Shown piece by piece: positions 4,978-57,700 of a stretch of DNA of 64,000 bases; the first letter of the stretch is position 1, and each line of letters opens with the position of its first letter. A model generated the notes under the pieces. That model saw nothing but the letters and a program-made list of their open reading frames with translations. It did no database searches and had not been told where the DNA came from. This DNA is from Eledone cirrhosa (Eukaryota), in contig OZ024755.1 in the NCBI GenBank assembly GCA_964016885.1, positions 8,370,001 through 8,434,000 on the forward strand, given 5' to 3'. A program made the position numbers and the translations under genes.

Positions 4978-5123
4978 AGGATGCGTTATTTTCTTGGGCA
5001 ACACATTTTATTTCACATTGCTCACTCTACCTGTAGTTGCGACCGAAAGAAAGACATTTTCAGTTGGAAATAACAATGGAAACATTGTTTCCTCGGTTTG
5101 ATTTGACAAAGGTCGGTCAACTG

Positions 5124-5127
<4 letters not shown>
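4978..5127 (+). mobile_element. 5'-truncated S2b SINE (partial CORE-like region plus tail b)
   Basis: Aligns with 43349-43518 and with the reverse complement of 35454-35649 (gttgcgacc...ttggaaa...gaaacattgtt..tcggt..gatttgac). Confidence 0.65.
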
Positions 5128-5165
<38 letters not shown>

Positions 5166-5233
5166 TCAACATTTGACCGACTTTTGTCAAATCGGACAGA
5201 GAAAAAAATGTTTCCGTTGGTCTTTCCAATTGC

Positions 5234-5236
<3 letters not shown>
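5166..5236 (-). mobile_element. S2b tail fragment, inverted relative to 4978-5127
   Basis: Reverse complement matches tagcaattggaaagaccaacggaaaca...ccgatttgac of the 43349 copy. Confidence 0.65.
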
Positions 5237-9786: not shown

Positions 9787-9894
9787 GGAAAAGAGTCAGG
9801 ACCCCTACGGCTGAGCTCCGGCCGTTTCAATAGCTAGATACAGAGCTCAGCCGTCGGGGTCCTGACTCTTTTCCTATTACCCACTCTACTACCC
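9787..9894 (+). mobile_element. Family B palindromic mini-element, internally deleted copy
   Basis: ggaaaagagtcaggacccctacggctgagctc ... gagctcagccgtcggggtcctgactcttttcc followed by tattacccactctactaccc; homologous to 35675-35870 and 36828-37020. Confidence 0.75.
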
Positions 9895-10258
9895 ATTTTA
9901 TCGAGTCGTTGTTATACATGTAGTAATATTATACTAATTGTAGTAACGGTCAGTTGAAAGCTGATTATATTGCCACCAGTATTTAACTAGTATTTAATTT
10001 ATCAATCCTGGCATGCTGATATGCAAATTCTACCATGGCGAATTTGAACACACACACGAAAAAGACAGAACAAATTCTGCAAAGCGTTTGTCTGACGCAG
10101 CAGAGAGATGAATGAAGAAATTTACTAGAGGTATTTTAAACAAGACTCATAAGCCTTTACACATGCGCAGAGAAGAAGACAAAAATAAATAAATAAATAA
10201 ATGAATAAAGAGATATAATAAAAATGGCGTAGACATACAATACAACAGGAGGAACATA

Positions 10259-10312
10259 ATAGTACCACTGATGATGTTGCAGATGTGCAACGAAAGAACT
10301 TTGTTAGACTAT
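10259..10312 (+). ncRNA. Candidate minimal Penelope-type hammerhead ribozyme
   Basis: CTGATGA 10268-74, one extra T, perfect 6-bp stem II GTTGCA-gatg-TGCAAC, GAAA 10292-95, minimal stem III AG-aa-CT, imperfect stem I ATAGTACCA/TGTTAGACTAT; followed by TA repeats. Confidence 0.45.
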
Positions 10313-10962
10313 ATATATGTGTTTATACCTATATTATATCTGTATTTTTGACCGTTGGTCAGTCAATGATACACATTGAGGACCAAATGAATTAACTGTG
10401 GAGATATAAAAGATACAGAAGCAAAAACCAACCAAAGAGTGAGTGTGTTCTGTTATTATTTCTGCCAATATTATTACAACAATATGACCCTCCCCAAGTA
10501 TAACAATAATTTTAATAAAATAACGTTTAAAGAATTTTCTGATTAACTCGGATTATTCTGAAGTCGTAATTCACTATTCACGTCATGATGACGTCAAGAA
10601 GTTATATATTTCTCATGAAAGGCGGTAAACAGATGCATTCGAAGTTTACTCAATGGGATTAAAATACAGATTCCTGTTATAAACTTAGAGAAATTCTCCG
10701 AAGGATTATACTTTTATTATTTTTATTTGTTTTTCAATGATTAGATCGTTGCTGTGCCAGGGCACTGAGTTAAATATATATTTAGTTGATCCTAATGACC
10801 TTAGTACATACGGTTTTAAAATTTGTTAGGAATTGTGTCAAAAACGTTTTGTCAAACCGCTAGACTAAGAAACGTAAACCAATGAATGCACACACACACG
10901 TGCACACACATGAATTCATAGTACATAAATTCATACATACATATATATACACACACATACAT

Positions 10963-35453: not shown

Positions 35454-35649
35454 GATCGATCGATCGTCAAATCGGACCGAGAAAACAATGTTTTCAACGG
35501 GCTTTCCAGTTGCTAGTACTATCTACCAGTCGCAACTCCAGTTAGAAGGAGCAGGTGAAGGATATAACGTATCGCCCGGTCCAGGAATCGATCTCACAAC
35601 CTCAAGATTGTGAATCCAATTCTCTAACCCCTTAGCTACACGCCTTCAC
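35454..35649 (-). mobile_element. S2b SINE (tRNA-like head plus tail b)
   Basis: Reverse complement: gtgaaggcgtgtagctaaggggttagag...gagatcgattcctggaccgggcg...ggagttgcgac...tcggtccgatttgacgatcgatc. Confidence 0.75.
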
Positions 35650-35674: not shown

Positions 35675-35865
35675 TAACGGAGGAAATGTGGTAAGGAACC
35701 AGATGGACCATAACGCACCAAAGTACTCAATACTTTGGGTAGTAGAGTGGGTAATAGGAACGAGTAGGACACCAACGGCTGAGCTCAAGCCGTTTCGACG
35801 GCTAATTCTGGACCAGAATTAGCCGTCGAAACGGCTTGAGCTCAGCCGTCGGGGTCCTACTCGTT

Positions 35866-35870
<5 letters not shown>
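35675..35870 (-). mobile_element. Family B palindromic mini-element, most intact copy
   Basis: 58-bp arms 35754-35811/35813-35870 with 2 mismatches, plus an 80-bp unique tail; TA repeats on both sides. Strand given relative to the 9787 and 36828 copies. Confidence 0.85.
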
Positions 35871-35906
<36 letters not shown>

Positions 35907-35914
<8 letters not shown>

Positions 35915-36037
35915 ATACTTTGGGAGGGTCATGTTGCCAATAAGAAACACACGCACCATGACCCTCCCAAAGTATAACAATATCGGTTTCAACACACGAT
36001 TTCAGATAAAGAATCTTGCTAAACAAATTCAGAAACG

Positions 36038-36040
<3 letters not shown>
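35907..36040. mobile_element. Family D hairpin mini-element in (TA)n
   Basis: Perfect 27-bp inverted repeat 35907-33/35957-83 with a 23-nt loop and a short tail; related arm atgaccctccccaagtataacaata at 10484-10508. Confidence 0.6.
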
Positions 36041-36084
<44 letters not shown>

Positions 36085-36827: not shown

Positions 36828-36831
<4 letters not shown>

Positions 36832-37018
36832 AGAAGTTTGACCCCGACGGCAGAGTTCAAGCAGTTTGGACGGCTATTTCTGGACTGAAATAGCTGTCGA
36901 AAGGGCTTGAGCTCTGCCGTCGAGGTCATACATTTTCCTATTATCCACTCTACTACCCTAAGTATTGAGTACTCGGGTGCATTATGGTCCATCTGGTTCC
37001 TTACCACAACTCCTTCGT

Positions 37019-37020
<2 letters not shown>
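36828..37020 (+). mobile_element. Family B palindromic mini-element, diverged, inverted relative to 35675-35870
   Basis: Same palindrome and tail ccactctactaccc.aagtattgagtact..ggtgc.ttatggtccatctggttccttaccaca. Confidence 0.85.
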
Positions 37021-56822: not shown

Positions 56823-57700
56823 AGCATTTGTATATTTTGAATGGGTAGACTTAATCTGTCACCCAGTTCACGACCACCGTTTTTTCCTTCGCTATCAACA
56901 TTGGGGTCCACTCTTTTGCAAGTATTCGTACCAGGTCTCCAATTTGAGAATATTTTCTATGTGGCACTCGCTTCAGCCTTGCAAATATTATTGATAAGCT
57001 CCTATCATACCAACGTCATGTTTTTATATGCATCATCATTTGTTGCTTCGATACATGTTTGTGGAATGCTCAGACAGGTACTTGTTGATATGATTTAGAG
57101 ATCCATCCGTTGATGGATACAAATATACAAGATGGATACAAGAATCCAAATCATCGAACTCGAAAGATGTCCAAAGCGGGAAGATTCTCGTCAAATTACC
57201 CTATAATGTTACAACAATGTATAATTTAATCCATAGTTATATGTATGTGATCGGAAGTGTAAAAGAAGAAACAAAATATTTGGATTGATAGTTAAATGTA
57301 GCAATCATTTCGTCAGAAATCCCCACACTTTTATATCTAGCCTATAGATAAATATCTGAACCAAAATATAATGTTTCCTGTTGCAGGCTAAATAATACAC
57401 CCACCTTACATTGAATGTAGCGACAAAAAATTCTGATGTTTACACATGGTTGCCATATTGGACCCAGCTTTATAATAGTTTTCTGATGAAGGGATTTTAG
57501 TACCGAAATATTATGACTGGTAAATAAAATAACAGTTAACTCACCAACATCTTTGTTACCTGTAATTTATTCAGAAATCTACCGTCCAATTTGCATTATC
57601 GAAGTCTTTAGATAACATACTACTTTATAAACTAACACAATACATCCAGCATGTTACAACAGCGTATTTTTGCATCCCCCTTTTTTTTACGTTGTCATTT

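What the first reader, a model, noticed from the sequence alone, without database searches (positions are those of the whole stretch)
35675..35870. Family B: 117-bp palindrome whose arms co-vary within each copy and contain half a hammerhead (GAAAC-stem III-GUC)
Seen: three copies (9787, 35675, 36828) next to TA tracts. Differences between copies are mirrored in both arms (ggcTgag/ctcAgcc vs ggcAgag/ctcTgcc; ctaAttc/gaaTtag vs ctaTttc/gaaAtag; gagtcagg/cctgactc vs gagtagg/cctactc), so each palindrome was made or homogenised per copy. The right arm reads GAAA(35828-31)-CGGCU-ugagcuc-AGCCG-UC: a 6-bp stem III with a canonical GUC site and a self-complementary GAGCUC loop, preceded by a stem II-like hairpin, but no CUGANGA box. 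Inference: fold-back copying primed at stem II of a hammerhead-bearing pLTR replaced the 5' half of the ribozyme with a mirror image. The product could also yield hairpin RNA/siRNA or extrude a cruciform.
Basis: partly seen in the sequence, partly recalled or inferred. Interest (0 to 1): 0.72.

Follow-up and report, generated by a model that had tools for sequence, protein, structure and literature searches.

The report
Head-to-head Penelope stubs, halved ribozyme
This palindrome is one of tens of thousands of short back-to-back stubs of a Penelope-like jumping gene sitting in TA repeats, and it holds only half a hammerhead ribozyme motif, likely because two separate copying reactions both run off an RNA end predicted to lie in the middle of that motif.

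Summary
The palindrome, its co-varying arms and the half hammerhead are real. It is a short, inverted insertion of a Hydra-clade Penelope-like retroelement (RT plus C-terminal GIY-YIG) in (TA)n; at least 51,768 arms exist genome-wide. Longer copies run on into a complete type I hammerhead motif (mostly a U3-A8 core, UUGANAA; rarely CUGANGA), the 3' UTR and the ORF. Nearly every insertion is one tailed plus one tailless arm, head to head, with its own junction (45 distinct of 46). Arms match by subfamily, but private mutations are not mirrored (0 of 31): palindromes are made per insertion, not homogenised. Either arm can be the longer, and some pairs share no sequence, which argues against fold-back at stem II and for two separately primed cDNAs. 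Arms stop at a conserved TYAGT word in loop II (108 of 151 within -7..+6, none at +7..+100), often with A-runs: likely the RNA's 5' end. The layout is published for PLEs; the run-off explanation was not found in my searches. This scan's earlier notes report the same reading for other PLE families (unchecked, not independent).

The parts
35675..35869 (-). Whole insertion (copy B2): tailless arm + tailed arm + tail of a Hydra-clade PLE, in (TA)n; element sense is the minus strand
35675..35756 (-). 82-bp tail: the part of the element's 5' leader between the two 3' end sites, both at TAT; in pLTR-bearing copies it continues into the ORF
35757..35812 (-). Tailed arm (56 bp): starts 2 nt inside the A of the TYAGT word; 3' half of the hammerhead motif with two private substitutions (GUC reads GUU here)
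35813..35867 (+). Tailless arm (55 bp), inverted; ends at TTCC followed by (TA)n
35828..35850 (+). GAAAC - stem III (GAGCUC loop) - GUC: 3' half of the parent's type I hammerhead motif; followed by the 3' strand of stem I (GGGGU)
35868..35910 (.). (TA)n target tract
36828..37020 (+). Copy B3: tailless arm (minus, about 36830-36886), tailed arm (about 36887-36938), tail 36939-37020; other subfamily, more diverged
9787..9906 (+). Copy B1: older subfamily; tailless arm (minus, about 9787-9838) longer than the tailed arm (about 9843-9874, lacks GAAAC); tail remnant 9875-9906

Best explanation
The palindrome is a 5'-truncated, head-to-head insertion of a Penelope-like retroelement with Hydra-clade protein motifs in a (TA)n tract, likely made when the two cut ends of the target each prime a cDNA at a different TAT site in the element's RNA leader and both cDNAs likely run off an RNA 5' end predicted to lie in loop II of the hammerhead. 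SHOWN: parent with RT, CxCX5C linker and GIY-YIG; (TA)n targets; two fixed 3' ends 82 nt apart (+58 and +140 from the A of TYAGT; ORF start near +232); one tailed plus one tailless arm per insertion; junctions differ copy to copy; a sharp upstream edge at TYAGT; full hammerhead motif only in the roughly 10% of arms that pass the edge. INFERRED: the element's endonuclease cuts both strands; two RTs prime; the edge is the transcript's capped start at an Initiator-like word; host end-joining seals the two cDNA ends (microhomology or short insertions). The arms co-vary because both come from the same source lineage. Long copies likely use a second template class (read-through, circular, or the 3' pLTR copy). 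The stub lacks the UGA box, so it is predicted not to self-cleave, and it lacks the sequence beyond the tail, so it is likely dead on arrival. My odds by step: PLE insertion 0.97; two primers rather than fold-back 0.8; edge = physical RNA 5' end 0.7; = capped start 0.55.
For: Parent: arms run into a 3' UTR and an ORF; a 710-aa frame in L147 carries RWR, DKT, YRDD, CxCX5C, VIY..YIG without CCHH, CxxC-E and N-CxH, the Hydra marks of PMC8557442 section 11; 402 homologues at E<=1e-30. Tail continues into the ORF in 76 exact places. Targets: 30 of 30 best copies lie in TA tracts. Geometry: of 46 short pairs in a position-ordered C1 sample, 44 are tailed+tailless, 2 tailed+unclassified; 45 distinct centres; 17 of 20 fetched long pairs are tailed+tailless with the core in both arms. 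Arms differ by 1.09 per 30 nt within a locus and 4.39 between, 0 of 10,000 permutations; subfamily concordance 38 of 41 against 0.22 by chance. Either arm may be longer (11 vs 8 of 61 by 10 nt or more); 7 tailless arms abut only an inverted piece of tail. Edge: 108 of 151 arms end at -7..+6, 0 at +7..+100, 8 beyond 100; A-runs of 6 or more at the edge in 6 of 90; 25 of 27 arms ending at +3 have a further T where the parent has A; 14 of 19 leader-containing copies that end inside the arm end in the same window (read by eye); TYAGT is 89-99% conserved in 111 copies while the 13 loop positions upstream (offsets 27-39) are 28-78%; 4,751 core matches against 51,768 arm matches, 9%. Published: a PLE protein cuts and extends both strands, starts RT at two internal sites that bound the tail, is predicted to be a dimer and does not need HHR cleavage (PMC11167929).
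Against: No RNA, CAGE or biochemical data. The cap-G signature is confounded: 20 G vs 6 A next to the A of TYAGT against 4 vs 12 at +1/+2 (Fisher p=0.0013), but G also exceeds A at -3 and -5 (14 vs 5), where the partner arm abuts, and about half of the 20 G can be read as partner sequence. TYAGT can also pair in a distal helix of loop II, so its conservation need not be promoter-related; no conserved TATA or DPE was seen by eye. Some arms do end at +7..+30 (L062, L080, L090, L094, L098, L107, L114; mostly picked by a length-biased query). 35 of 151 arms stop well short of the edge. Deletion after insertion could also make asymmetric or non-overlapping arms. The tailless partner was not scored for 29 of 90 tailed arms. 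Pfam gave no hit for the protein; clade placement rests on motifs and a by-eye comparison with the paper's alignment, not on a tree. PAc starts at a site not homologous to the target, whereas here both sites share TAT with it.
Confidence: 0.75

Rival explanations
1. Fold-back (self-priming): one cDNA folds back near stem II and copies itself as far as the second TAT site, giving the mirror arm.
For: Arms of one insertion are near-identical and of one subfamily; 23 of 61 pairs end within 2 nt of each other; PMC3846280 reads palindromes at inverted junctions as self-priming.
Against: The tailless arm is 10 nt or more longer than the tailed arm in 11 of 61 pairs and in window copy 9787; 7 insertions have arms with no shared sequence; 32 of 61 junctions carry inserted bases and several carry A-runs; one pair has arms of two different subfamily haplotypes, 3 differences; centres range from 25 bp to over 5 kb.
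Confidence: 0.1
2. Two-primer insertion as above, but the edge is an RT block or an RNA cut in loop II (bound protein, distal hairpin, nuclease), not the transcription start.
For: A distal helix in loop II ends at the same bases; the cap-G signal is confounded; stops spread over -7..+6.
Against: Stops lie inside or past the helix's 3' strand, after RT has passed stems I, III and II; the block is all-or-none and shared by both arms of an insertion (17 of 20 long pairs; 25 inverted pairs among the first 100 core matches, by eye); A-tailing fits a template end.
Confidence: 0.2
3. The short palindromes are deletion products of long inverted insertions (hairpin or cruciform instability), or a MITE-like unit that moves as a fixed palindrome.
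For: Long inverted repeats are unstable (general knowledge); at least 40 copies share the B2 centre; TA flanks both ends of the palindrome.
Against: The ends of the whole unit are not inverted repeats (tail on one side only); centres differ copy to copy and the B2 centre occurs in 0 of 46 sampled pairs; a one-sided hard edge with untemplated A-runs is not expected from deletion; the top copies are only 1.1% diverged.
Confidence: 0.07
4. The stubs are a trans-mobilised, SINE-like lineage: short copies are transcribed from the retained TYAGT and are re-inserted with a newly made palindrome each time.
For: About 90% of arms are short; many keep TYAGT.
Against: The common subfamilies checked also occur as long copies; stubs lack the sequence 3' of the tail, which PAc needs for protein binding (PMC11167929). 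Not tested directly.
Confidence: 0.1

Closest known systems
Hydra clade of C-terminal EN+ Penelope-like elements (Craig et al. 2021, PMC8557442; passages, section 11 and supplement searches seen)
   Same: RWK-type motif (RWR), DKT, CxCX5C linker, no CCHH, CxxC and CxH around E and N, single ORF, about 3 kb, (TA)n target.
   Different: Not their Hydra-1_Obim: different protein sequence, and that family has a CUGAAGA core; three of four short probes from this family had no hit in the supplement and one had an unrelated hit. Here the core is U3-A8 or C3-A8, stem III is 5-6 bp and loop II about 33 nt; tens of thousands of copies.
Inverted-pLTR-plus-tail insertion structure of EN+ PLEs (PMC8557442 Fig. 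2 legend; PMC3846280 passages; PMC2377424 passages)
   Same: Inverted 5'-truncated copy next to the direct copy, head to head; tail at one end only; partial tandems forming pLTRs.
   Different: Tail is 82 bp, not 30-40; the commonest product is a stub of about 113 bp with a sharp edge; the published reading is self-priming, which these data disfavour.
PAc Poseidon in vitro mechanism (Frangieh et al. 2024, PMC11167929; parts 1-2 of 4 read)
   Same: Two internal RT start sites bounding the tail; both target strands used; HHR cleavage site is read through.
   Different: Starts lie in the 5' leader upstream of the ATG (PAc: 111-118 nt into the ORF) and share TAT with the target; that paper does not explain inverted stubs.
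PLE hammerheads (Cervera and de la Pena 2014, PMC4209133; parts 1-2 of 4 read)
   Same: Type I fold in the pLTR, long helix II, G10.1-C11.1, palindromic loop 3, U3-A8 core variant (about 1,300 in Schistosoma), opposite-strand pairs 100-700 bp apart.
   Different: Long helix III like the fungal and protist variants, not the metazoan minimal form; a young subfamily with an unpaired C3-A8.
L1 twin priming and LTR-element strong-stop DNA (recalled; no paper on either was read here)
   Same: Both target ends prime; cDNA from an internal primer runs off the RNA 5' end.
   Different: L1 twin-primed segments do not overlap, these usually do; no tRNA primer or integrase here.

Membership tests
EN+ Penelope-like element | Single ORF with RT and C-terminal GIY-YIG endonuclease | tested here: met
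   L147 frame of 710 aa with YRDD and VIY..YIG; 40% identity over 700 aa to P0002; Pfam itself gave no hit
EN+ Penelope-like element | pLTR from partial tandems; inverted truncated copy; one-sided tail | tested here: met
Hydra clade | RWK-type motif, DKT, CxCX5C linker, no CCHH, CxxC/CxH around E and N | tested here: met
   against the text (RWR in place of RWK)
Hydra clade | Insertion into (TA)n | tested here: met
   30 of 30; ends
Hydra clade | RT phylogeny groups with Hydra families | not tested
   No tree was built; only a by-eye comparison with the supplement alignment shown
Hydra clade | Canonical hammerhead core (CUGANGA) in the pLTR | tested here: not met
   Core mostly UUGANAA: 80 U3-A8, 15 C3-A8, 8 C3-G8, 5 U3-G8, 3 A3 of 111 held copies, a query-biased set; reported as common in Hydra, not as a defining mark
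Type I hammerhead ribozyme (parent pLTR) | Three stems around UGA-A, GAAA and NUH, with free position 7 | tested here: met
   89.8% of cells pair, 3 compensatory pairs in stem II, none in stems I or III; position 7 takes all four bases; 3 of 5 MFE folds give the junction
Type I hammerhead ribozyme (parent pLTR) | Watson-Crick pair between positions 3 and 8 | tested here: inconclusive
   Met by U3-A8 in most copies; not met in the C3-A8 subfamily that includes several long relatives of copy 35675
Type I hammerhead ribozyme (parent pLTR) | Match to an Rfam hammerhead model | tested here: not met
   None listed for L163/L164 at E<=10, nor among the 150 of 268 window matches listed
Type I hammerhead ribozyme (parent pLTR) | Self-cleavage after GUC | not testable with these tools
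   needs an in vitro assay
Hammerhead ribozyme (the palindromic stub itself) | Both catalytic boxes present | tested here: not met
   5' box absent; folds as one long hairpin, -125.6 kcal/mol
MITE / TIR DNA transposon | Terminal inverted repeats at both ends of a fixed unit | tested here: not met
   one-sided tail, variable centres, arms continue into an RT element
Non-LTR retrozyme | Non-coding tandem units each with a complete type I hammerhead | tested here: not met
   no short tandem units seen in the loci examined; the parent is coding

The most novel reading that the evidence does not exclude
This PLE starts its transcript inside loop II of its own hammerhead, so the RNA has only half a ribozyme at its 5' end and a whole one at its 3' end; cleavage there would leave a 41-nt terminal repeat equivalent to the R region of LTR elements. 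The abundant palindromes would then be pairs of 'strong-stop' cDNAs from a dimeric RT that did not transfer to the 3' end, and pLTRs would be built by a retrovirus-like strand transfer defined by a ribozyme. The genome would hold a base-resolution record of this step in tens of thousands of copies.
Probability: 0.25. Interest if true: 0.72.

Novelty: new member of a known kind. Interest (0 to 1): 0.42.

Why it matters
The object is ordinary retroelement debris, and the inverted-copy-plus-tail layout is published. Its value is as a natural experiment on an open question, how PLEs make inverted ends and pLTRs: the copies favour two separately primed cDNAs over the published self-priming idea, and point to one base where the template ends, which CAGE or an in vitro assay can test. 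It also shows a very successful PLE lineage with a non-canonical, partly mismatched hammerhead core, in line with cleavage being dispensable for insertion, and warns that such stubs can pass for MITEs or miRNA hairpins in annotation (the best Rfam match over the copy was a miRNA model below its threshold).

Tried and rejected
The repeat finder on the window was swamped by microsatellites. Search for CUGANGA 8-36 nt upstream of the arm: 48 hits, of which the 30 examined were chance junctions, flanks or captured pieces of other repeats, not parents. A first reading as a fixed palindrome or MITE came from the 30 best hits sharing one centre; it was a selection effect. A first guess of Neptune clade was dropped for Hydra on motifs. 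Pfam found nothing useful. Rfam found no hammerhead. A splice-acceptor reading of TTTAG was rejected because many arms include the AG and no common upstream exon appears. The cap-G test is kept as suggestive only. Script faults: one search stopped before its summary (rows used); one search cut one haplotype short and scored the centre base as mirrored (redone); one search's haplotype scoring was off by one base for 46 rows, which I read by eye; L328 was mis-scored as +6 though it is long (9 of 90 tailed arms carry the core). Literature searches for a PLE strong-stop, twin-priming or run-off model and for these palindromes in octopus found none; subscription papers, Repbase and Dfam were not searchable. 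The host was not identified by any search.

Full report
OBSERVATION. Copy 35675 is a 115-bp palindrome from TA to TA (35755-35869; 117 bp with the next pair) plus an 82-bp one-sided tail, in a TA tract. GAAAC, a 6-bp stem with a GAGCUC loop, and GUC are at 35828-35850. The quoted mirrored differences are real.

ABUNDANCE. The window is G000:C15:8370001-8434000 in a 3.0-Gb assembly. A 25-mer of the arm has 51,768 exact matches and its reversed control 0, so there are at least about 26,000 insertions. The tail junction of this copy's own subfamily has 9,534 exact matches. The 30 best matches are 1.1% from their majority and all lie in (TA)n.

PARENT. Longer copies extend the arm upstream through a 3' UTR of roughly 600-700 bp into an ORF. 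L147 holds a 710-aa frame with RWR, DKT, YRDD, CxCX5C, a GIY-YIG without CCHH, CxxC-E and N-CxH. These are the marks that Craig et al. give for the Hydra clade of Penelope-like elements, almost all of which insert into (TA)n (PMC8557442 section 11). Their octopus family Hydra-1_Obim has a different protein and a canonical core, so this family appears not to be in that paper. No tree was built and Pfam gave no hit. In 76 exact places the tail continues into the leader and ORF instead of into (TA)n. In L341 the predicted cleavage site is +41 from the A of TTAGTCC, the tailless end +58, the tail end +140 and the ATG about +232. Both end sites read TAT, which matches the target.

RIBOZYME. The parent has a whole type I motif: stem I ACCCC/GGGGU, core UUGANAA, G10.1-C11.1, a 9-bp stem II with a loop of about 33 nt, GAAA, stem III, GUC. 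On 24 copies chosen across subfamilies, 89.8% of cells pair and stem II has three compensatory pairs; stems I and III have none, and relatedness inflates the shuffle control. Position 7 takes all four bases. In the first 100 of 4,751 core matches position 8 is always A, with U3 in 69 and C3 in 31 (counted by eye). U3-A8 is a known PLE variant (PMC4209133). Canonical CUGANGA was found in 10 places for the pattern tried, nine of them CUGAGGA, spread over subfamilies. Rfam does not detect the motif and activity is untested. The stub lacks the 5' box and folds as one hairpin.

HOW THE PALINDROME IS BUILT. I took the first 100 arm matches along C1 and found 126 arms: 49 head-to-head pairs and 28 unpaired. 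Of the 46 pairs within 500 bp (3 longer pairs set aside), 44 are tailed plus tailless and 45 have distinct centres. Arms are closer within a locus than between loci (1.09 vs 4.39 differences per 30 nt, 0 of 10,000 permutations), and agree in subfamily in 38 of 41 assignable pairs against 0.22 expected. In a second sample, 90 of the first 100 tailed arms of this copy's subfamily, all 61 scored partners are within two substitutions of the same haplotype (read by eye). Private differences are not mirrored (0 against 31). So co-variation reflects a shared source at insertion, not later homogenisation. Long insertions follow the same plan up to over 5 kb (17 of 20 fetched).

FOLD-BACK OR TWO PRIMERS. 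If the tailed cDNA folded back and copied itself, the tailless arm could hold nothing that the tailed arm lacks. It is longer by 10 nt or more in 11 of 61 pairs (the tailed arm in 8), it is longer in window copy 9787, and in 7 of the 28 unpaired arms a tailless arm meets only an inverted piece of the tail. Junctions show 1-6 nt overlap in 26, blunt ends in 2, inserted bases in 32 and a longer overlap in 1 of 61. One pair joins two subfamily haplotypes. This fits two cDNAs primed from the two target strands at the two TAT sites and joined end to end (inference). It agrees with the PAc protein, which cuts and extends both strands, starts at two internal sites bounding the tail, is predicted to be a dimer and inserts without ribozyme cleavage (PMC11167929). 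The published reading of such junctions is self-priming (PMC3846280). Later deletion cannot be excluded case by case.

WHY HALF A HAMMERHEAD. Of 151 arms scored, 108 end between -7 and +6 of the A in TTAGTCC, 35 end earlier, none between +7 and +100, and 8 beyond (one long arm was mis-scored as +6; 29 partners were not scored). The genome-wide core-to-arm ratio, 9%, agrees. At the edge, 6 of 90 insertions carry A-runs of 6 or more, and 25 of 27 arms ending at +3 have a further T where the parent has A. Among 72 of the 76 leader-containing places examined (73 rows), 23 have the whole core upstream, 31 show no arm, and 19 end inside the arm, 14 of these in the same window (by eye). TYAGT is 89-99% conserved in an otherwise variable loop and fits the Initiator consensus (recalled); pLTR promoters with Inr-like words are reported for other PLEs. 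An untemplated G next to the A is enriched (20 G, 6 A; 4 G, 12 A at +1/+2; p=0.0013) but confounded by the partner arm. I infer a physical RNA 5' end there, most likely the capped start. Passing the edge is shared by both arms of an insertion (25 inverted pairs among the first 100 core matches, by eye), which suggests a second template class and counts against independent strand transfers. A few arms end at +7..+30 in length-biased sets.

PRIOR NOTES AND PRINT. I recorded the run-off idea. Earlier notes of this scan, seen afterwards, give the same reading for other PLE families in this and other genomes; a search by this sequence found none. They are unchecked AI notes and are not counted as support. 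Searches of the paper library for a PLE strong-stop, twin-priming or run-off model found none; Repbase, Dfam and subscription journals were not searched. Papers seen: PMC8557442 (passages, section 11, supplement searches); PMC11167929 and PMC4209133 (parts 1-2 of 4 each); PMC3846280 and PMC2377424 (passages); PMC13282606 (part 1 of 3) and bioRxiv 10.64898/2026.07.22.740005 (part 1 of 5; supplements not seen), neither bearing directly.

VERDICT. Real feature; a new family of a known class; known layout. Interest 0.42: ordinary object, but a sharp and testable handle on PLE mechanism.

Noticed in passing
window 35909-36042: An unrelated repeat with the same plan (73-bp palindrome ending at TA plus a 56-bp one-sided tail, in (TA)n); tailed and tailless ends recur in many loci.
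   Followed up: partly
window 10230-10508: Longer relative of that repeat with a canonical minimal hammerhead motif (CUGAUGA at 10268) about 230 nt upstream of its end; likely another PLE pLTR.
   Followed up: partly
window 57483-57520: Second minimal hammerhead-like motif, CUGAUGA..GAAA.
   Followed up: no
L335, L341, L347, L353, L357, L363, L369-L371, L377, L390, L398, L402: Thirteen near-identical pLTR-bearing copies of one young lineage (U3-A8 core); L353 and L357 show an open frame to the end of the fetched stretch.
   Followed up: no
L149, L155, L156, L131: Long relatives of copy 35675 carry CUGAGAA (unpaired C3-A8), predicted to impair cleavage, yet the subfamily has over 9,500 copies.
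   Followed up: partly
L205-L213: Nine of ten canonical-core copies read CUGAGGA, one A-to-G step from CUGAGAA, across several subfamilies; mutation or RNA editing not distinguished.
   Followed up: no
L201 (G000:C1:13301052): The two arms of one short palindrome match two different subfamily haplotypes (3 differences), suggesting two template RNAs or gene conversion.
   Followed up: partly
L031, L040, L051, L059, L034, L044: Family arms joined directly to pieces of other hammerhead-bearing repeats (CUGAAGA..GAAA), several times to the same one; possible template switching between PLE RNAs.
   Followed up: no
L091:2627-4221: A LINE fragment with RT end and RNase H-like frame lies inside a long copy.
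   Followed up: no
L094:1823-3200: ORF of a second, diverged Hydra-like PLE next to two family copies.
   Followed up: no
window 5059-5235: Imperfect inverted repeat around a TA tract; a related sequence occurs near 35465-35530.
   Followed up: no
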